From the sequence record OR397123.1: a stretch of 38,059 nt of DNA; one strand, written 5' to 3'. This stretch comes from Clostridioides phage AR1074-1. A program made the position numbers and the translations under genes. This document shows, piece after piece, positions 3,117 through 8,786 of this stretch. The notes below the pieces were generated by a model. That model had not been told where the DNA came from. It saw only the letters and a program-made list of their open reading frames with translations, and did not search any database. Each line of letters starts with the position of its first letter. Position 1 is the first letter of the stretch.

Positions 3117-3791
3117 TTACTGCTCTACTTTAATTTCTCCTAGCTCAATCCAGTTATCTTTATATAATTCCGGAAATTTCTTTTCTACATCTGATTTTGA
3201 TGCTCCTTGATTTGCGTACTCCATTGCTTCAAAAAGTCTTGAATAATCTTTCAGGTTATATTTTAAAACTATTTCTTTTACATTCATATTCTTTTCAACT
3301 AATATTTTAACTTGTGCATCAAATTTGTAGTTAGCTGGTACTTGTTGATTGTCTAATTTATCAGTTACTTTTATGTCTTTAAATTCGTAACCATCTGTAC
3401 CGACTGCGTTCCATCCTGTTTGAAATAATTTAACTGCTTTATCTGTTTTATTTTCTACTTCTACATTTACAACTTCGTACACATAATCAGCTGCCTTTTT
3501 CTTTTCGATTCCATCACTAAAATATTCTCCATTTTCGTTAAAACTTCCGTCTTCGTTTATATCTCCTTTTATATCTTCTTTTGTAACATCTTTTACAGTT
3601 ATTTTAATTCCATCAACCTCATTTTCATTTGCTTTCTTTTCTTTTTTAGTTGTGTTTCCAGTATCTTTGTTATTAGTTGATGAACAAGCAACCAACCCTA
3701 CACTTAATAAACATACTGTAATTAATAATAATACTTTTTTCATCCTCGATTCCTCCATGTTTTTATGTTTTGTTATATATTTCAACATCAA
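3117..3791 (-). CDS. Prophage lipoprotein (candidate superinfection-exclusion or surface protein)
   Basis: 224 aa. The signal peptide MKKVLLLITVCLLSVGLVACSS carries the lipobox LVAC. The mature part is Lys/Asp/Glu-rich. The gene sits in the lysogeny region. Confidence 0.7.
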   Translation of the reverse strand: MMLKYITKHKNMEESRMKKVLLLITVCLLSVGLVACSSTNNKDTGNTTKKEKKANENEVDGIKITVKDVTKEDIKGDINEDGSFNENGEYFSDGIEKKKAADYVYEVVNVEVENKTDKAVKLFQTGWNAVGTDGYEFKDIKVTDKLDNQQVPANYKFDAQVKILVEKNMNVKEIVLKYNLKDYSRLFEAMEYANQGASKSDVEKKFPELYKDNWIELGEIKVEQ

Positions 3792-4183
3792 AACTTATAT
3801 TCCTTTAATTTTCTATTCTAGTAGTATGAAAATAATTTAAAAGAATAATACCTATTTATTTCCATTCTAAGCATTTTTTTATGCTATTTAACATAAATTA
3901 TTTATAACAAACAGAAAAATCGTTTCTGGTGTCTTGTATCGCTTCTAAATGATATTCTAGTTTCTTAATCAAATAATCATTTTCTTTTTATCCAAAGATA
4001 CATTCTAATAGTTTCTTTACTTTTGAAAAATGCTAATAATATTTTAAATAGCGACCACCACTTTTTGAGACAAGTTAGATTTCTAATTAAGTTAAGTACT
4101 TTAATAAATAAATACAAAAGATACATATTTTGTTCTCTATAATACAAGTTCTCTATAATAATATATTCTCTATATATTTACTG

Positions 4184-4267
4184 CACCACTTTTTGCACTA
4201 CCAAAGCACCACTTTTTGCACTACCAAAGCACCACTTTTTGCACTACCAAAGCACCACTTTTTGCAC
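4184..4267. repeat. Iterons: about 3.7 tandem copies of a 23-bp unit CACCACTTTTTGCACTACCAAAG
   Basis: Perfect head-to-tail 23-bp repeats at 4184, 4207, 4230 and 4253 (last copy partial). A related half-site, accaccactttttg, lies at 4055-4068. Three TTCTCTATAWA boxes lie at 4132-4182 in an AT-rich tract. Confidence 0.65.
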
Positions 4268-4406
4268 GTAGTAAGAAATCTAATTAATTTTTAAAAACTT
4301 ATTAACATGTTATCAACATAAAAATAATGGTTATCAACATAAAAATCAAAGTTATAAACAGCATTGTTATATTTAGACATAAAAATAGACCTTTTTTAAA
4401 GAAGGT

Positions 4407-5099
4407 CTATTTTTTACGTGCATTTTTCCATTCTGAAAAACTACATAGTCTATATAATTTTTGTATCCTAGGAACTTTTTTATTCTTTTCTTCGTCCCAC
4501 TCAAATTTATTTTCTTTTTTTACTTCGATATATTTGCTTACTTCAAATACTGTTATAATTTTTCTTATTTTACTTCTGTTATTTTTGCTATCACCACATA
4601 ACCCGATTTTTTCACAAATAAATTTTTCAGTCATACATTTAAAACTATTTTCAGTTGTCATGTAACATAAAAGGCAATAAACTTTTATTGCATTAGTATT
4701 AAATGCAGAAATTAATTCTTGTAGCATATCATGATGAATTGTAACAAATTTATGAACGTTATCGTTGTATCCTGTACTTGTACCATAGTTTAATCTATAA
4801 ATTATTCCGTTGCGGCTGTTTTCTATTTCAAGTACTTTACAATCTAAACTATTGAGCTTTTTTATATTTCTCTCTAAAGTAGTACGAGCAACCCCTATTT
4901 GTTTAGCTAATTCTTCCATTTTAAATTTATTTTGATACAAATATCTATTTTTTTCTATATGCATAATTCTCATGCTCCCTTTACTTATAAGCATTAAAGC
5001 GCCAAACTCTTTAGCACAATAATTTTTTTCATTTAAACAATACGTAGGCATTGGTAATTTATAATTTTTTTCTAATTCTTTTGCTTCTTCTAAAGACAT
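4407..5099 (-). CDS. Winged-helix HTH protein, candidate plasmid-type replication initiator (iteron-adjacent)
   Basis: The track ORF is 241 aa. The likely true start is the second Met (MSLEEAKELE...) at 5099, preceded by AAAGGGGGAA and 7 nt. The HTH segment is MEELAKQIGVARTTLERNIKKL. The iterons lie 140 bp beyond its 3' end. Confidence 0.5.
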   Translation of the reverse strand: MSLEEAKELEKNYKLPMPTYCLNEKNYCAKEFGALMLISKGSMRIMHIEKNRYLYQNKFKMEELAKQIGVARTTLERNIKKLNSLDCKVLEIENSRNGIIYRLNYGTSTGYNDNVHKFVTIHHDMLQELISAFNTNAIKVYCLLCYMTTENSFKCMTEKFICEKIGLCGDSKNNRSKIRKIITVFEVSKYIEVKKENKFEWDEEKNKKVPRIQKLYRLCSFSEWKNARKK

Positions 5100-5119
5100 T
5101 TTATTTCCCCCTTTTGACG

Positions 5120-5320
5120 GGGCTTGAAGCACTTTTAACTAATTAAGTTAAAAATTTCAAATTATTTTTAACCTTAAAACATTGATTTATAAGTTGTTTT
5201 AATCTATAATATAACTTATAAATTAGTTAAAAAAGGATATAATTATATCCTATAAGAGCTTCAAGCTCCGTTGGTAAGGAATAAGTCGAGTCGCCAAACA
5301 AACGCTTATTCCTTTTATTT
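5120..5320 (+). ncRNA. Candidate structured antisense/countertranscript RNA opposite the leader of the Rep-like gene, ending in a rho-independent terminator
   Basis: A long-range 13-bp stem pairs cggggcttgaagc (5118-5130) with gcttcaagctccg (5255-5267). Inside are an 18-bp perfect palindrome aggatataattatatcct (5233-5250) and a near-palindrome at 5143-5163. A terminator hairpin aaggaataag...cttattcctt followed by ttttatttgttttt lies at 5278-5325 on the plus strand. No plus-strand CDS lies upstream. Confidence 0.3.
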
Positions 5321-5411
5321 GTTTTTGTAATCTGTAATAAGTTAATATTAATTATAGCATAAATATAAAATAAAAAAATATATTGATTTTGAAAATAAAT
5401 TATATTTTAAA

Positions 5412-5442
5412 AGACTTAGTACACTTACTAAGTCTTTTTTTA
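5412..5442. terminator. Bidirectional hairpin terminator (gacttagta-cact-tactaagtc followed by a T7 run)
   Basis: Perfect 9-bp stem flanked by an A-run upstream and a T-run downstream. Confidence 0.45.
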
Positions 5443-5555
5443 TGTAAATATATGTTATAATAATTTTAGCGAGGAAAAAAGTGATTGAAAAAGCGTAAGA
5501 GTGGCTATTTCCATATTTAAACGCCAAATTCCATAACGGAAGGAGGTGGAACAAT

Positions 5556-5663
5556 ATGGTGATAAATTTTTTATTGAGTATACTAGCTGGTGTTATATCA
5601 GCTTCCATATATGATAAAATAAAAAACCACTCAAACGCCAATAAGAGTGGTTCAAGAAAATAA
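5556..5663 (+). CDS. Type I toxin-like small hydrophobic peptide (35 aa: MVINFLLSILAGVISASIYDKIKNHSNANKSGSRK)
   Basis: Not in the ORF track (under 60 aa). A strong RBS GGAAGGAGGTGG lies 6 nt upstream of the ATG. A single predicted transmembrane helix is followed by a Lys/Arg-rich tail. A convergent antisense promoter and terminator overlap its 3' end. Confidence 0.55.
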   Translation: MVINFLLSILAGVISASIYDKIKNHSNANKSGSRK

Positions 5664-5722
5664 GTTATTTTTCAAAACATTGGAAATAGCTACTCTTGTG
5701 TAAAGTAAATCATTATTTCCTT
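5611..5722 (-). ncRNA. Antisense RNA (type I antitoxin candidate) overlapping the 3' end of the toxin ORF
   Basis: Minus-strand sigmaA-like promoter: -35 TTGTAT (5758-5753), an 18-bp spacer, and an extended -10 TGATATAAT (5737-5729). Minus-strand terminator: hairpin aaccactc/gagtggtt (5625-5653) followed by TTTTTTATTTT. Confidence 0.45.
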
Positions 5723-5785
5723 GCTTTTATTATATCACATTTTTTAAAAAAGATACAATTTTACATCACTTCATATATGTTAATT

Positions 5786-5920
5786 AGTTTAAAAATACAA
5801 AACCACTCTGCGCAAAAGAGTGGTTGGGAATTTGATTTAAAAATCAAATTCAAAAAGTCTAGATAATTTTTTACTTTAGACGAAAACTCTACTCTTATGA
5901 CTGAAATACAGTTCTCTTGC
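5786..5920 (-). ncRNA. Second, orphan copy of the antitoxin-like sRNA module (no toxin ORF partner)
   Basis: A roughly 60-bp promoter repeat (5917-5972) duplicates 5718-5775 but its -35 is changed to TCGTAT. Minus-strand terminator hairpin aaccactct/agagtggtt (5800-5824) followed by TTTTGTATTTTT. No small ORF lies opposite. Confidence 0.35.
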
Positions 5921-6112
5921 TTTTATTATATCACATTTTCTTTAAAAGATACGAATTTATATCATTTCTAATATACTAAAATCTTTACTTTTTACCAAAA
6001 TTTGTTTAAAAATAGGAGAAAACTATTGCTTTTGACGCCCCGTCATGATATAATATATTTATAGAGAAGGAGGTGAGAAAGCAAAAAAAAATAAAAGAAA
6101 GGAGGAACGGGA

Positions 6113-6241
6113 ATGGGGAGATTAGAAAGAAGTAAAAAGAAAAGAGAAAACAAATTTAACATAGTTAAAAAAGTTTTCTCTTTCATCCTATTATTACTTA
6201 ACATAATCCTCGCAGTTCTAAGAATTTTAAAAGAACTGTAA
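6113..6241 (+). CDS. Small membrane peptide (42 aa: MGRLERSKKKRENKFNIVKKVFSFILLLLNIILAVLRILKEL)
   Basis: Not in the ORF track. RBS AAGGAGGAACGGGA then ATG. A basic N-terminus is followed by one transmembrane helix, then an imperfect hairpin (cctagaggg...ccttctctctagg). Confidence 0.4.
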   Translation: MGRLERSKKKRENKFNIVKKVFSFILLLLNIILAVLRILKEL

Positions 6242-6314
6242 GGATAAGCCTAGAGGGAATAGCCCTTCTCTCTAGGTGACTTCTTTCTAATATTATAACA
6301 CATTTCTAAAAAAC

Positions 6315-6476
6315 ATGAGTGATAAATTTTATAAGATTTGCATTGTTTTAGTTTTGATAACTATAGTCTTAAATATAGTATCTATAGTATTAAACTCTAG
6401 TACAAGCAACATGCTCGGTTTAGTTTTTAGTGTTGTATTATTGCTTTTCTTTGTAATACAGCAAAAAAGGAGCTAA
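6315..6476 (+). CDS. Small two-TM membrane peptide (53 aa)
   Basis: ATG at 6315 and stop at 6474-6476, 4 nt before the next gene's ATG. Two hydrophobic helices (ICIVLVLITIVLNIVSIVL and GLVFSVVLLLFFVI). No clear RBS, so weaker support. Confidence 0.3.
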   Translation: MSDKFYKICIVLVLITIVLNIVSIVLNSSTSNMLGLVFSVVLLLFFVIQQKRS

Positions 6477-6479
6477 TGA

Positions 6480-6662
6480 ATGGAAAAAGAAAAAAGAGAT
6501 TTAAAGTTTAACTTTCACAAAGGTGGGAGTGGGTCGTTTACTCCTAGAATGAGTGTTCCTAAAAAATGGGCTGATGAAATGGGCATAACAAGAGAAAACC
6601 CTAATGTTACGGCAACATTCGAGGGCGACAGGATAATAATTGAAAAGGCTAAGAATGAATGA
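6480..6662 (+). CDS. AbrB/MazE-family (SpoVT/AbrB swapped-hairpin) small DNA-binding protein
   Basis: 60 aa. RMSVPKKWADEMGI...VTATFEGDRIIIEKA matches the AbrB/MazE fold signature. RBS AAAAGGAG. Sits immediately upstream of the partition operon. Confidence 0.6.
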   Translation: MEKEKRDLKFNFHKGGSGSFTPRMSVPKKWADEMGITRENPNVTATFEGDRIIIEKAKNE

Positions 6663-6671
6663 CTTTTTCTA

Positions 6672-6712
6672 TAAAAGAAGGTTGCTTTTTTTCTTAGCCT
6701 TCTTTTTTTTAA
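6672..6712 (+). terminator. Rho-independent terminator after the AbrB-like gene
   Basis: Stem aaagaagg/ccttcttt followed by TTTTTTTT. Confidence 0.45.
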
Positions 6713-6940
6713 ATTTTACTATAATATAAAAATAATACTGTAATATTATAAAAATATTATTTTAGTATTGTATATACAATATTTTAGTATTTTTAATATA
6801 ATATATTGGTATTGTAAAAGCAATATGTAAATATTGTATTTATATTATTTGAATATTGTAATTAACAATATTAATATATTGTTGCAATATTATAAAAACA
6901 ATACTACAATATTGTTATAATATTATAAATATAATAATGA
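6713..6940. repeat. AT-rich centromere-like (parS-type) repeat field upstream of parA: many CAATATT/AATATTG boxes and short palindromes
   Basis: Examples: perfect palindrome acaatattgt (6906-6915), caatattaatatattg, attgtaattaacaat, and repeated taatattata/aatattgta units throughout the roughly 230 bp of non-coding DNA. Confidence 0.5.
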
Positions 6941-6941
6941 G

Positions 6942-7760
6942 GTGGAGAAAATGGCTAATACAAAGCTACTTACGTACTTTAACATAAAAGGAGGTATCTA
7001 TAAGACAACAACGTCTATAATGACAGCGTATGAACTTGCGAAAGATAAAGATAAAAAAATACTCTTATGGGACTTAGATGTACAAGCAAATCTAACACAA
7101 TATGTTTATGAAATAAATCATAATGATAATACTACATTAGATATTTTAAAAGGGATTAGTGCTAATGATGCAATAGTCAAGTCACCTAATGAAAAGTACA
7201 TTAATGTAGACTTAATTCCTTCTGACATACAAATGGCTAGATTTGAACAAGAGCTATCACCTTTACCAGCCAGAGAAAAATTTTTAGCTCGCTGGTACAT
7301 GCAAAACTTTAATACTTTGAGTGAGTATGATTATATTATCTGTGATTTATCTCCACGCTACGATTTGACAGCTAAAAATGTGCTTTTCTTAGCAGATAGT
7401 ATAATTATTCCAATTCAAGATAAAAACATTTCTTCTTTAAGAGGAGCAGAATTATTTAAACAACTCTGGGATGTTGATAGAACCTATTTTGATAAGGAGG
7501 ATAATATAAAAAGTACTGTTTTGGTTGGATTTGAGAAGAAGAAAACTCAAATTAGTGATACTTTCGATTCTTATCTGGAAGGGTTTAACGATATGAGAGA
7601 TATTATGTTAGATACATATATTAGAAAAAACGAGTTTATAGAGAAGGCACTATTGAAAAAACTATCTCTAACAGATTATACAAAAATAACTAAAGAGCAT
7701 TTCAGCAGACAAGAGTTTGCTAATATGTTAGAAGAACTAAAAGTGAAAGGAGTGTTGTAG
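6942..7760 (+). CDS. parA: ParA/MinD-family partition ATPase
   Basis: 272 aa with a deviant Walker A (NIKGGIYKTTTS, KGGxxK[ST] type) and Walker A'/B regions (LLWDLD, IICDLSP). RBS GAGGTGGAG. Confidence 0.85.
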   Translation: MEKMANTKLLTYFNIKGGIYKTTTSIMTAYELAKDKDKKILLWDLDVQANLTQYVYEINHNDNTTLDILKGISANDAIVKSPNEKYINVDLIPSDIQMARFEQELSPLPAREKFLARWYMQNFNTLSEYDYIICDLSPRYDLTAKNVLFLADSIIIPIQDKNISSLRGAELFKQLWDVDRTYFDKEDNIKSTVLVGFEKKKTQISDTFDSYLEGFNDMRDIMLDTYIRKNEFIEKALLKKLSLTDYTKITKEHFSRQEFANMLEELKVKGVL

Positions 7761-8096
7761 ATGCCAAAATTCGACGAAGAACTTTTATCTAATAAAGAAA
7801 AACCAGTTTTCAAAAAAAATGGAACAATCATACAAAATAATTCTACAACTACAGACAATAAGACATTAAACATATATAATCTAGTTAATAAGAAAAGTAA
7901 AAAGGTAACTATGAGTGCAACGCTTGATGAAGAACTTGTAAACAAATTAAAATCTTTTTCTATTGATATGAACAGCGACGTCAGCAAATTATTAAGTGAT
8001 GTACTAACTCAAATTTTATCTGATGTCACTATAAAAGAAGAGAATTTAAATATATACAATGAGAGAAATAGAAGAAATAAGACTAAGAAAAAGTAA
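7761..8096 (+). CDS. ParG/CopG-like ribbon-helix-helix partition adaptor (centromere-binding protein candidate)
   Basis: 111 aa. ATG immediately follows the parA stop. The C-terminal half, KKVTMSATLDEELVNKLKSFSIDMNSDVSKLLSDVLTQIL, fits a beta-strand-helix-helix RHH. The N-terminal half is disordered and basic. Confidence 0.6.
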   Translation: MPKFDEELLSNKEKPVFKKNGTIIQNNSTTTDNKTLNIYNLVNKKSKKVTMSATLDEELVNKLKSFSIDMNSDVSKLLSDVLTQILSDVTIKEENLNIYNERNRRNKTKKK

Positions 8097-8536: not shown

Positions 8537-8572
8537 AGTGTATTTATTGAATACACTGTTTTTATTTCCGCA
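8537..8572 (+). terminator. Rho-independent terminator (cagtgtatt-tattg-aatacactg plus TTTTTATTT)
   Basis: Perfect 9-bp stem followed by a T-run directly after the 8239-8520 gene. Confidence 0.7.
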
Positions 8573-8786
8573 TAGTTAATCTAAAATTGGATATTGTATC
8601 ATATGGATATAGATTAAATTGATATTTAAATCCCTTATAGTTAATCTTAAAAATTGTTATTATATTATTTCTCTATAAATTAAATTGACATTTAAATCCC
8701 TTGTAGTTAATATAAAAATTCTTATTACAATATCATTTCTAAATAAATTAAAAAATATTTTAAATCCCTCGTAGTTAATCTTAAAA
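8560..8786 (-). CRISPR. Orphan CRISPR-repeat-like mini-array: 3 well-conserved plus 1 degenerate 29-30-bp direct repeats at a 66-bp period. Minus-strand unit is TTTTTAWKATTAACTAYAAGGGATTTAAAT.
   Basis: On the plus strand the repeats lie at 8624-8652, 8690-8718 and 8757-8786 (ATTTAAATCCCTTRTAGTTAATMTWAAAA). A degenerate copy lies at about 8560-8587, as expected for a trailer-end repeat. Spacers are 35-38 bp. The minus-strand repeat begins TTTTATATTAACTA and ends GGGATTTAAAT, like clostridial type I-B repeats (recalled C. difficile consensus GTTTTATATTAACTAAGTGGTATGTAAAT). No cas genes in the window. The spacers share an AAATTAAATTGA motif, so a true array is uncertain. Confidence 0.4.

What the first reader, a model, noticed from the sequence alone, without database searches (positions are those of the whole stretch)
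5380..5780. Type I toxin-antitoxin locus with a 35-aa membrane toxin missed by ORF calling
Directly readable:
- A strongly initiated ORF (RBS GGAAGGAGGTGG then ATG at 5556) encodes MVINFLLSILAGVISASIYDKIKNHSNANKSGSRK, one transmembrane helix plus a basic tail.
- On the opposite strand a near-consensus sigmaA promoter (-35 TTGTAT, 18-bp spacer, extended -10 TGATATAAT; 5758-5729) fires toward the ORF.
- A minus-strand terminator hairpin (5625-5653 plus a T-run) lies inside the ORF's 3' end, predicting an antisense RNA of about 110 nt that overlaps the last roughly 50 nt of the toxin mRNA.

This layout (short hydrophobic toxin with a convergent overlapping sRNA) matches type I TA modules. Such modules are reported in C. 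difficile prophages, often adjacent to CRISPR arrays. Here the locus sits in the plasmid-maintenance block of a phage-plasmid, consistent with a post-segregational killing role.
Basis: partly seen in the sequence, partly recalled or inferred. Interest (0 to 1): 0.7.

Follow-up and report, generated by a model that had tools for sequence, protein, structure and literature searches.

The report
Type I toxin-antitoxin on phage-plasmid
A tiny membrane-toxin gene and the antisense RNA that silences it sit beside the partition genes of a Clostridioides difficile phage-plasmid; the module is real but belongs to an already described family, and a second, toxin-less antidote RNA gene lies next to it.

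Summary
Window 5453-5758 is a complete type I toxin-antitoxin module. It consists of an extended -10 promoter, an 88-nt leader, a strong RBS, a 35-aa one-helix toxin (5556-5663), and a convergent antisense RNA of about 105 nt (5722 to about 5617).

The whole locus aligns base by base with CD0904.1-RCd13 and CD0956.3-RCd14 of prophage phiCD630-1. Peltier et al. 2020 showed those modules to be toxic, to be neutralised by their RNAs, and to stabilise plasmids. The same paper reported such toxins in all C. difficile phages, in plasmids, and next to parA in phiCD38-2. This locus is therefore a new, unannotated member of a known kind, not a new system.

- Window 5792-5956 is a second antitoxin gene of the 50-aa toxin class with only the last 22 toxin codons, so it is an orphan. 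phiCD38-2 has the mirror arrangement.
- The toxin mRNA is predicted to close into a 5'-3' panhandle (z = -9) that is kept by compensatory changes across the family.
- The antitoxin terminator lies inside the toxin's conserved KNHS...KSG motif, and its stem covaries.

No part of this was tested for expression or toxicity.

The parts
5409..5445 (+). Hairpin plus T-run immediately upstream of the toxin promoter. It is T-rich on both sides, so it probably insulates the module from outside transcription.
   Evidence: Terminator scan. Fold -13.9 kcal/mol, z = -4.8.
5453..5461 (+). Toxin promoter: extended -10 TGTTATAAT with a weak -35. The predicted start is A5468.
   Evidence: Read. TATAAT is invariant in 6 homologous loci, and the same box precedes AGCAAGG in most family members. 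The start site is inferred, not mapped.
5468..5513 (+). 5' arm of the predicted toxin-mRNA panhandle, inside the 88-nt leader. Its 3' end (UUUCCAUAUU, 5508-5517) is also complementary to the start-codon region.
   Evidence: The leader length matches the 83 and 88 nt measured for relatives.
5538..5549 (+). Ribosome-binding site GGAAGGAGGTGG. It lies in a local hairpin together with the AUG.
   Evidence: GGAGGTG is invariant in the 14-sequence alignment. The local hairpin is -10.3 kcal/mol, z = -2.4.
5556..5663 (+). Toxin gene: 35 aa, one predicted helix (residues 2-31), hydrophobic N-terminal half, basic tail.
   Evidence: AlphaFold single-sequence model with pLDDT 82.7.
5612..5652 (-). Intrinsic terminator of antitoxin A, inside toxin codons 19-33. 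The stems are 5652-5645 and 5632-5625, and the U-tract is the complement of 5624-5612.
   Evidence: Fold. 8 pairs, 3 of them compensatory and none broken in 13 sequences.
5617..5722 (-). Antitoxin A RNA, about 105 nt. It has a 5' hairpin, a single-stranded A/U-rich middle and a terminator hairpin. It is fully complementary to the toxin mRNA 3' part.
   Evidence: Fold -21.7 kcal/mol, z = -2.7. It is homologous to RCd13 and RCd14. Both ends are inferred.
5681..5725 (+). 3' arm of the predicted panhandle in the toxin 3'UTR, followed by U-rich UUUUAUUAU. No local hairpin exists here.
   Evidence: (I1).
5729..5758 (-). Antitoxin A promoter: -35 TTGTAT, 18-nt spacer, extended -10 TGATATAAT.
   Evidence: It aligns with the RCd13 promoter, whose -35 TTGAAT lies inside published primer JP635 and which has the same 18-nt spacer.
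5798..5866 (+). Remnant of a 50-aa-class toxin gene: the last 22 codons plus the stop (QNHSAQKSGWEFDLKIKFKKSR). It has no start codon, RBS or promoter.
   Evidence: Of the 22 remnant residues, the last 21 equal the C-terminus of phiCD6356_34 and the first (Q) replaces its K.
5792..5918 (-). Orphan antitoxin B RNA, about 127 nt, of the 50-aa toxin class. Its terminator stem is at 5825-5801.
   Evidence: Terminator scan. Fold -33.6 kcal/mol, z = -4.6. Its transcribed body differs by 3 nt from the cognate antitoxin of phiCD6356_34.
5925..5954 (-). Promoter of orphan antitoxin B: extended -10 TGATATAAT and -35 TCGTAT. It lies in a 64-nt direct repeat (83% identical) that includes the antitoxin A promoter.
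   Evidence: (D1).

Best explanation
Window 5453-5758 is a type I toxin-antitoxin module of the C. difficile short-toxin class (CD0904.1-RCd13 and CD0956.3-RCd14).

**Components.**
- A sigma-A promoter with an extended -10 makes a toxin mRNA of about 258 nt. It encodes a 35-aa single-helix membrane peptide.
- A convergent promoter 60-100 bp past the stop codon makes an antisense RNA of about 105 nt. Its terminator lies inside the toxin's last codons. The RNA is perfectly complementary to the 3' 105 nt of the toxin mRNA.

**Proposed action (inferred, by analogy with the validated relatives).** The short-lived antisense RNA pairs with the long-lived toxin mRNA and prevents toxin synthesis. Cells that lose the phage-plasmid lose the antitoxin first and are arrested. 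The module therefore backs up the adjacent ParA partition system.

**My own structural inference.**
- The toxin mRNA closes into a panhandle: leader 5468-5513 pairs with 3'UTR 5681-5725.
- The antitoxin competes with the leader for the 3' arm.
- In silico, antitoxin binding frees the 5' end and lets the leader segment CCAUAUU cover the AUG. The likely consequences are decay, a translation block, or both.

**Shown here:** sequence anatomy, homology, purifying selection and covariation. **Inferred:** transcription, toxicity, RNA half-lives, the maintenance role and the refolding mechanism.
For: **Homology to validated modules.**
- tblastn gives 68.6% identity to the CDMH1 peptide (CD0904.1) and 73.5% to the phiCDKH02 peptide (CD0956.3).
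- These two loci were identified through zero-mismatch hits of the published primers (JP595, JP635, JP661 and JP662; JP694, JP695 and JP663) at the published offsets, and through the exact-sequence name CDIF630_01025 [phage p630P1].
- The whole locus aligns with them. The RBS, the leader block TAAACGCCAAATTCCA and the box CCTTGCT.TTATTATA.CACA are conserved.
- NCBIfam NF047374 matches at E = 1.5e-10.

**The ORF is a gene.**
- pN/pS is 0.29 and 0.18 in the 20 codons outside the antisense overlap.
- The ORF is kept open with a GGAGGTG RBS in 14 loci.
- It is predicted to form a single helix.

**The antisense RNA is a gene.**
- The extended -10 is found in every family member scanned except Terrisporobacter and the frameshifted pESS10701b.
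- The terminator stem has 3 compensatory pairs and no broken pair.

**Published function of the relatives (PMC7699646).**
- CD0904.1 and CD0956.3 arrest growth when induced, and the arrest is reversed by the antisense RNA.
- Plasmids carrying these modules are retained by 22-64% of cells against 1% for the empty vector.
- phiCD38-2 gp33, which lies next to parA, is cited there as such a module.

**Context.** ParA matches PF13614 at 7e-33, 1.3 kb downstream. TerL and a tape-measure protein are also present. The window is identical to circular plasmids pCd18_3 and NZ_CP083618.1.

**Panhandle.**
- MFE is -84.6 kcal/mol against -46.2 for shuffles, z = -9.05.
- The same closure (28-43 bp) appears in all 14 family mRNAs.
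- Arm duplexes score z = -2.3 to -11.3.
- 90.9% of cells are paired against 39-61% with slid partners. 11 of 23 pairs have compensatory changes, and 0 of 500 shuffles reach the observed score.
- G-U pairs are biased to the sense strand, 46 against 12.
- Masking the antitoxin target lowers P(AUG unpaired) from 0.39 to 0.02 and raises 5'-end exposure from 0.05 to 0.74.
Against: - No transcript, toxicity or stability data exist for this allele.
- The exact peptide is rare. It was seen on one contig in the 15-billion-protein collection and in two plasmid records.
- It has Ser17 where the relatives have Phe or Tyr, so an attenuated toxin cannot be excluded.
- The NCBIfam score of 41.3 bits is below the curated cut-off of 60. 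The two validated short toxins are also below it, at 53.4 and 53.6 bits.
- The antitoxin -35 is weak, and promoter-like matches are not enriched in this A+T-rich region.
- The panhandle evidence rests on about 7 independent lineages. One lineage (phiCD38-2 and phiCD6356) folds slightly better on the opposite strand.
- Gene conversion between inverted repeats could mimic covariation.
- The anti-AUG pairing is weak in several members, at -4 to -6 kcal/mol and close to shuffles.
Confidence: 0.85

Rival explanations
1. The module is a genuine type I TA, but its main role is defence or competition rather than post-segregational killing. It could act in abortive infection or exclusion of other phages. 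Together with the orphan antitoxin, it could act in interference between rival phage-plasmids.
For: - The element is a phage-plasmid.
- The neighbouring orphan antitoxin B nearly equals the cognate antitoxin of the toxin carried by phiCD38-2/phiCD6356-type elements, and phiCD38-2 carries the mirror orphan.
- Reviews list phage exclusion among the validated TA functions.
Against: - The only direct data for this family are plasmid stabilisation and prophage maintenance.
- The locus sits in the partition block.
- No defence-system model was searched; PADLOC was not run.
Confidence: 0.2
2. The module is a decaying or attenuated copy. The RNAs may still be made, but the Ser17/SGSRK peptide is no longer toxic, so the locus contributes nothing to maintenance.
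For: - The exact allele is rare.
- Degraded relatives exist: phiCD506 is truncated to 32 aa, pESS10701b is frameshifted, and the window itself has a toxin remnant at 5798-5866.
- Loss of the toxin before the antitoxin is the expected decay path.
Against: - The ORF, RBS, both promoters and the terminator are all intact.
- Only 2 residues differ from the phiCD146 allele (94.3%).
- The overall substitution pattern is purifying.
Confidence: 0.12
3. A chance short ORF next to chance promoter-like and hairpin sequences in A+T-rich intergenic DNA.
For: - 35-aa ORFs are common; 52 ORFs of at least 20 aa overlap 3500-8000.
- Promoter-like sites are at background frequency.
- There is no Pfam or Rfam match.
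Against: - Full-length homology to validated modules.
- A family HMM match.
- Purifying selection.
- Compensatory changes in two RNA structures.
- Exact duplication of the promoter box.
Confidence: 0.01

Closest known systems
CD0904.1-RCd13 and CD0956.3-RCd14 of prophage phiCD630-1 (Peltier et al. 2020, PMC7699646)
   Same: - Toxins of 34-35 aa sharing the core FLLSI(L/V)AG..SA.IY.KIKNH.NANK.
- The same RBS, leader block, convergent antisense promoter box and 18-nt spacer.
- The same terminator position inside the toxin's 3' codons.
- The same module size: the published clone spanning -43 to +230 would contain all of it.

   Different: - 27-31% of residues differ.
- The tail is SGSRK instead of GDLKK.
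- The terminator stem is AACCACTC/GAGTGGTT instead of AATCACCC/GGGTGATT.
- The -35 is TTGTAT instead of TTGAAT.
- The module sits on an extrachromosomal phage-plasmid next to parA, not in an integrated myovirus prophage next to an integrase or a CRISPR array.
phiCD38-2 gp33 / phiCD6356_34 module (50-aa toxin class; also CD0956.2-RCd10 and CD2517.1-RCd8, Maikova et al. 2018)
   Same: - The same syntenic slot upstream of the 60-aa ORF and parA.
- An identical sequence upstream of the toxin promoter.
- The same promoter boxes and the same panhandle architecture.
- The window's orphan unit B belongs to this class.

   Different: - The toxin is 50 aa with an extra WEFDLKIKFKK tail, and the antitoxin is about 128 nt.
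- NCBI names these toxins (94-97 bits) but not the short class.
- In phiCD38-2 the complete and orphan units are swapped relative to the window.
Bacillus subtilis prophage type I modules with 3'-overlapping antitoxins (bsrG/SR4, txpA/RatA); comparison rests on my own knowledge plus the summary in PMC5961336
   Same: - A Gram-positive prophage setting and a small membrane toxin.
- A convergent antisense RNA overlapping the toxin's 3' end.
- For SR4, a 3' antisense that also changes the structure around the RBS at a distance, which resembles the refolding predicted.
   Different: No sequence similarity; there is no Pfam hit. The refolding here is only a prediction.
hok/sok of plasmid R1 and aapA1/IsoA1 of Helicobacter pylori (my own knowledge; cited as concepts in PMC5961336)
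   Same: - Plasmid addiction by a stable toxin mRNA and a labile antisense RNA.
- A long-distance 5'-3' pairing that locks the full-length toxin mRNA.
   Different: - In those systems the antisense RNA targets the 5' region, and 3' trimming activates the mRNA.
- Here the antisense RNA targets the very 3' arm of the lock.
- The peptides are unrelated.

Membership tests
C. difficile type I TA, short-toxin class (CD0904.1-RCd13 / CD0956.3-RCd14) | Toxin peptide homologous to a validated member. | tested here: met
   68.6% identity to CD0904.1 and 73.5% to CD0956.3 over the full length.
C. difficile type I TA, short-toxin class (CD0904.1-RCd13 / CD0956.3-RCd14) | NCBIfam NF047374 (CD_typeI_toxin) at or above the curated cut-off of 60 bits. 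| tested here: not met
   41.3 bits, E = 1.5e-10. The cut-off also excludes the two validated short toxins (53.4 and 53.6 bits) and passes only the 50-53-aa class. The failure therefore reflects the model's length, not non-membership.
C. difficile type I TA, short-toxin class (CD0904.1-RCd13 / CD0956.3-RCd14) | Consensus RBS a few nt upstream of the ATG; hydrophobic N-terminus and positively charged tail. | tested here: met
   AGGAGG lies at 5541-5546, 9 nt before the ATG. The peptide has VINFLLSILAGVISASIY followed by K21, K23, K30, R34 and K35. It is predicted to be a helix over residues 2-31.
C. difficile type I TA, short-toxin class (CD0904.1-RCd13 / CD0956.3-RCd14) | Convergent antisense RNA gene with its own sigma-A promoter within about 120 nt downstream of the stop codon, homologous to RCd13/RCd14. 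| tested here: met
   The promoter at 5758-5729 aligns with the RCd13 promoter contained in primer JP635. The terminator stem covaries. Homology is met; transcription was not observed.
[quoted passage not shown] | Induced toxin arrests growth, and co-expressed antisense RNA rescues it. | not testable with these tools
   Shown only for the relatives (PMC7699646).
[quoted passage not shown] | [quoted passage not shown] | not testable with these tools
   Perfect complementarity follows from the overlap. A strongly structured toxin mRNA (z = -9.05) against a modestly structured antitoxin (z = -2.7) is compatible but is not a measurement.
[quoted passage not shown] | Stabilises the replicon that carries it. 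| not testable with these tools
   Relatives raise plasmid retention from 1% to 22-64%. The location beside ParA is consistent.
hok/sok (Hok/Gef family) | Hok-family peptide and a Sok-type antisense RNA against the 5' leader/mok region. | tested here: not met
   There is no Pfam or Rfam match, and the antisense RNA overlaps the 3' end. The resemblance is functional only.

The most novel reading that the evidence does not exclude
Two readings go beyond the literature I could search.

**(1) Toxin-less antitoxin genes as cross-immunity or anti-addiction determinants.** Rival C. difficile phage-plasmids may carry a toxin-less copy of each other's RNA antitoxin.
- The window and phiCD146 have a short-class TA plus an orphan long-class antitoxin.
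- phiCD38-2 has a long-class TA plus an orphan short-class antitoxin.
- The orphans differ from the other element's cognate antitoxin by only 1-3 nt in the transcribed body.
- Each element could therefore neutralise the other's addiction toxin and displace it or coexist with it.

**(2) A conserved 5'-3' panhandle in the toxin mRNA of the whole family.** Its outer stem followed by a U-rich run may serve as the transcription terminator and stability lock. The antitoxin may act by invading the 3' arm.
Probability: 0.3. Interest if true: 0.6.

Novelty: new member of a known kind. Interest (0 to 1): 0.3.

Why it matters
**As a TA module, little is new.**
- It adds one more unannotated copy of a family already shown to stabilise C. 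difficile mobile elements.
- It confirms that current annotation misses the short class: the NCBIfam cut-off excludes even the validated members.

**Practical value.** pCd18_3-type phage-plasmids probably resist curing because of this locus.

**The side observations are more useful.**
- If orphan RNA antitoxins give cross-immunity, they would help explain which C. difficile phage-plasmids can coexist or replace one another.
- If the conserved panhandle is real, it offers a testable answer to how an antisense RNA bound at the 3' end can control a toxin whose RBS is 100-200 nt away.

Tried and rejected
- **Rfam** at a permissive threshold found only sub-threshold noise. **Pfam** found nothing. 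**PHROGs** gave only phrog_738, 'unknown function'.
- **The exhaustive phmmer search** of 1.84 billion representatives found only 2 hits at E <= 1e-3. The family is narrow and the query is short.
- **The published toxin sequences** are in figure images, not in text. I recovered them indirectly through the published primers and exact-sequence names.
- **A CRISPR array** was looked for with the C. difficile repeat as I remember it and with TRF. None was found.
- **A local intrinsic terminator for the toxin mRNA** in the 3'UTR was looked for. None was found in the window, CDMH1 or phiCD38-2 (z about 0). This led to the panhandle-as-terminator idea.
- **MAFFT on full-length mRNAs** put the 5' ends out of register, so I used arm-only constructs.
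- **One script** timed out and was rerun.
- **The idea that antitoxin B could act on the window's own toxin** was dropped. A and B are only 66.5% identical, and no second intact toxin gene exists in the window.

Full report
**What is in the sequence.**
The ORF at 5556-5663 encodes MVINFLLSILAGVISASIYDKIKNHSNANKSGSRK and follows the RBS GGAAGGAGGTGG at 5538-5549. On the minus strand, TTGTAT (5758-5753), an 18-nt spacer and TGATATAAT (5737-5729) point toward the ORF. A hairpin (5652-5645 with 5632-5625) followed by UUUUUUAUUUU lies inside the last codons.

The generic scan listed neither the promoter (its -35 matches only 3 of 6) nor the terminator (its loop is 12 nt). Promoter-like sites in this A+T-rich stretch are at background frequency, 12 found against 9.4 expected. 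The case therefore rests on comparative evidence, not on consensus matches.

**Where the window comes from.**
The region is 100% identical to two circular C. difficile plasmids, pCd18_3 (NZ_CP037808.1, 38.2 kb) and NZ_CP083618.1. It is 96% identical to phage phiCD146. The window encodes ParA (6942-7760, PF13614, 7e-33), a large terminase and a tail tape-measure protein, so 'phage-plasmid' is correct. No CDS is listed over the toxin ORF in pCd18_3, phiCD146, CDMH1 or phiCD506.

**Identity of the module.**
The peptide matches NCBIfam NF047374 'type I toxin-antitoxin system toxin' at E = 1.5e-10.

Peltier et al. 2020 (PMC7699646) described two short toxins in prophage phiCD630-1: CD0904.1 (35 aa) and CD0956.3 (34 aa), with antitoxins RCd13 and RCd14. 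Both toxins arrest growth when induced and are rescued by their antisense RNAs. Both modules raise retention of an unstable plasmid from 1% to 22-64%.

The toxin sequences appear only in figures, so I located them through the published primers:
- All four CD0904.1-RCd13 primers checked hit phage CDMH1 (L002) with no mismatch at the published offsets.
- Three CD0956.3-RCd14 primers hit phiCDKH02 (L003) in the same way.
- The CDMH1 peptide is exactly the protein named CDIF630_01025 of phage p630P1.

The window peptide is 68.6% and 73.5% identical to these two. The alignment runs through the whole locus: the toxin -10, the leader block TAAACGCCAAATTCCA, the RBS, the ORF and the antisense promoter box CCTTGCTTTTATTATATCACA. 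The RCd13 -35 (TTGAAT, inside primer JP635) sits at the same 18-nt spacing as the window's TTGTAT. The predicted 88-nt leader matches the 83 and 88 nt measured for relatives, and the predicted sizes for the 50-aa class (295-299 nt) match the measured 298-306 nt.

**Is the ORF a gene?**
Against the two validated toxins, the 20 codons outside the antisense overlap give pS 0.38-0.49 and pN 0.07-0.14, so pN/pS is 0.18-0.29. Inside the overlap, synonymous change is rarer (pS 0.12-0.25), as expected if the RNA also constrains those sites. The ORF with its GGAGGTG RBS is kept in 14 loci from phages, small plasmids, 130-300-kb plasmids and a Terrisporobacter plasmid. A single-sequence AlphaFold model is one helix over residues 2-31, with pLDDT 82.7.

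**Is the antisense RNA a gene?**
- The extended -10 is found in every scanned member except Terrisporobacter and the frameshifted pESS10701b.
- The 24-nt box occurs twice in the window against 0.00 expected.
- The terminator stem keeps 8 of 8 pairs in 13 sequences and has three compensatory pairs: AACCACTC/GAGTGGTT, AATCACCC/GGGTGATT and AGCCACTC/GAGTGGCT.

These stem changes are the S/P, S/G and N/S differences in the peptide motif KNHS...KSG. The U-tract is the complement of the KIK codons. The conserved C-terminal half of the toxin is therefore doubly constrained.

- The antisense RNA is about 105 nt. If the toxin mRNA ends near the antitoxin start, as mapped for CD0977.1, CD2517.1 and CD2907.1, the antisense RNA is complementary over its whole length, not only over 50 nt.
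- No CRISPR array is present.
- The family, its spread in all C. difficile phages and in plasmids, its evasion of annotation, and the parA-linked copy in phiCD38-2 were already published.

**Extra finding 1: an orphan antitoxin.**
The promoter box and terminator recur 176-199 bp downstream. Window 5792-5956 is a complete antitoxin gene of the 50-aa toxin class.
- Its transcribed body differs from the cognate antitoxin of phiCD6356_34 by 3 nt.
- It folds well, at -33.6 kcal/mol, z = -4.6.
- Only the last 22 codons of that toxin remain (5798-5866), and no other intact toxin gene exists in the window.

phiCD38-2 has the mirror layout. It carries the complete 50-aa TA (gp33) followed by the last codons of a short toxin plus a short-class antitoxin gene that differs from the window's antitoxin A by 1 nt in its body. 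phiCD630-1 and phiCDKH02 carry both modules complete in tandem. phiCD506 equals the window minus the 196 bp between the direct repeats. Toxin-first decay explains orphans. Whether they are kept for cross-immunity is open; Peltier et al. showed that 3 mismatches still allow cross-protection.

**Extra finding 2: a panhandle.**
The predicted toxin mRNA (5468-5725) folds at -84.6 kcal/mol against -46.2 for shuffles, z = -9.05. Leader 5468-5513 pairs with 3'UTR 5681-5725, and the RBS and AUG sit in a local hairpin.
- All 14 family mRNAs fold to the same closure, with 28-43 bp.
- Arm duplexes are far stronger than shuffles.
- On an arm alignment, 90.9% of cells pair against 39-61% with slid partners. 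11 of 23 pairs show compensatory change, and no shuffle reaches the score.
- G-U pairs favour the sense strand, 46 against 12. One lineage goes the other way.

The toxin and antitoxin transcripts both begin AGCAAGGAAA after TATAAT, so the module is bounded by an inverted repeat of promoter plus leader. The 3'UTR has no local hairpin, so the outer stem plus UUUUAUUAU may itself end transcription. Masking the antitoxin target in silico frees the 5' end (0.05 to 0.74 unpaired) and covers the AUG (0.39 to 0.02 unpaired). The anti-AUG element is present in all lineages but is weak in some. The papers I could search mention only a sequestered RBS and a long leader. A published Mfold figure may show the closure.

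**Verdict.**
This is a correct call on a real module. It is a new member of a known kind, with low surprise for a specialist. Two side observations are worth a bench test.

Noticed in passing
window 5792-5956, and L006 (phiCD38-2) 1795-1943: There are reciprocal orphan antitoxin genes. The window has a short-class TA plus a toxin-less long-class antitoxin. phiCD38-2 has the long-class TA plus a toxin-less short-class antitoxin. Each orphan differs by only 1-3 nt (transcribed body) from a cognate antitoxin of the opposite class: phiCD38-2's orphan by 1 nt from the window's antitoxin A, the window's orphan by 3 nt from phiCD6356's cognate (8 nt from phiCD38-2's own).
   Followed up: yes
window 5468-5513 with 5681-5725; same in L001-L008, L010-L013, L015: The toxin-mRNA leader and 3'UTR are complementary, forming a panhandle. 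The pairing is kept by compensatory changes across the family. Toxin and antitoxin transcripts both start with AGCAAGGAAA.
   Followed up: yes
window 5612-5652: The conserved peptide motif KIKNHS...KSG is encoded by the antitoxin's terminator stem and U-tract. Amino-acid differences S/P, S/G and N/S between family members are the two sides of compensatory stem changes.
   Followed up: partly
NCBIfam NF047374 (not a window coordinate): The curated cut-off of 60 bits excludes the experimentally validated short toxins CD0904.1 and CD0956.3 (53.4 and 53.6 bits). PGAP therefore cannot name any short-class toxin, and database copies are unnamed or 'hypothetical'.
   Followed up: yes
L005 (phiCD506) 1665-1760 versus window 5720-5979: phiCD506-type elements look like the window after deletion of the 196 bp between the two 64-nt direct repeats of the antitoxin promoter. 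The phiCD506 toxin also stops 3 codons early, at 32 aa. pESS10701b (L016) has a frameshifted toxin.
   Followed up: partly
window 6032-6313: A second small membrane ORF (6113-6241, 42 aa, basic N-terminus and hydrophobic C-terminus; phiCD38-2 gp32) has its own extended -10 promoter (TGATATAAT, about 6046-6054) and a terminator at 6248-6277. It faces a minus-strand TGTTATAAT box (6300-6292) that is exactly conserved in phiCD146, phiCD506, phiCD38-2 and phiCD6356. This may be another convergent antisense arrangement.
   Followed up: partly
window 4183-4267: There are 3.7 perfect tandem copies of a 23-bp unit (GCACCACTTTTTGCACTACCAAA) just downstream of the 3' end of the minus-strand HTH gene 4407-5132. 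They look like iterons.
   Followed up: no
window 8572-8786: There are 3.2 copies of a 66-bp repeat (80% matches) downstream of the ParA operon. This is a possible partition site, not a CRISPR array.
   Followed up: no
window 5182-5330: A plus-strand promoter-like site (TTGATT, 17 nt, TATAAT; 10 of 12) is followed by a hairpin at 5276-5314 plus a T-run. The fold is -11.7 kcal/mol, z = -1.0, which is not significant. It lies between the HTH gene and the TA module and could be a small transcript.
   Followed up: partly
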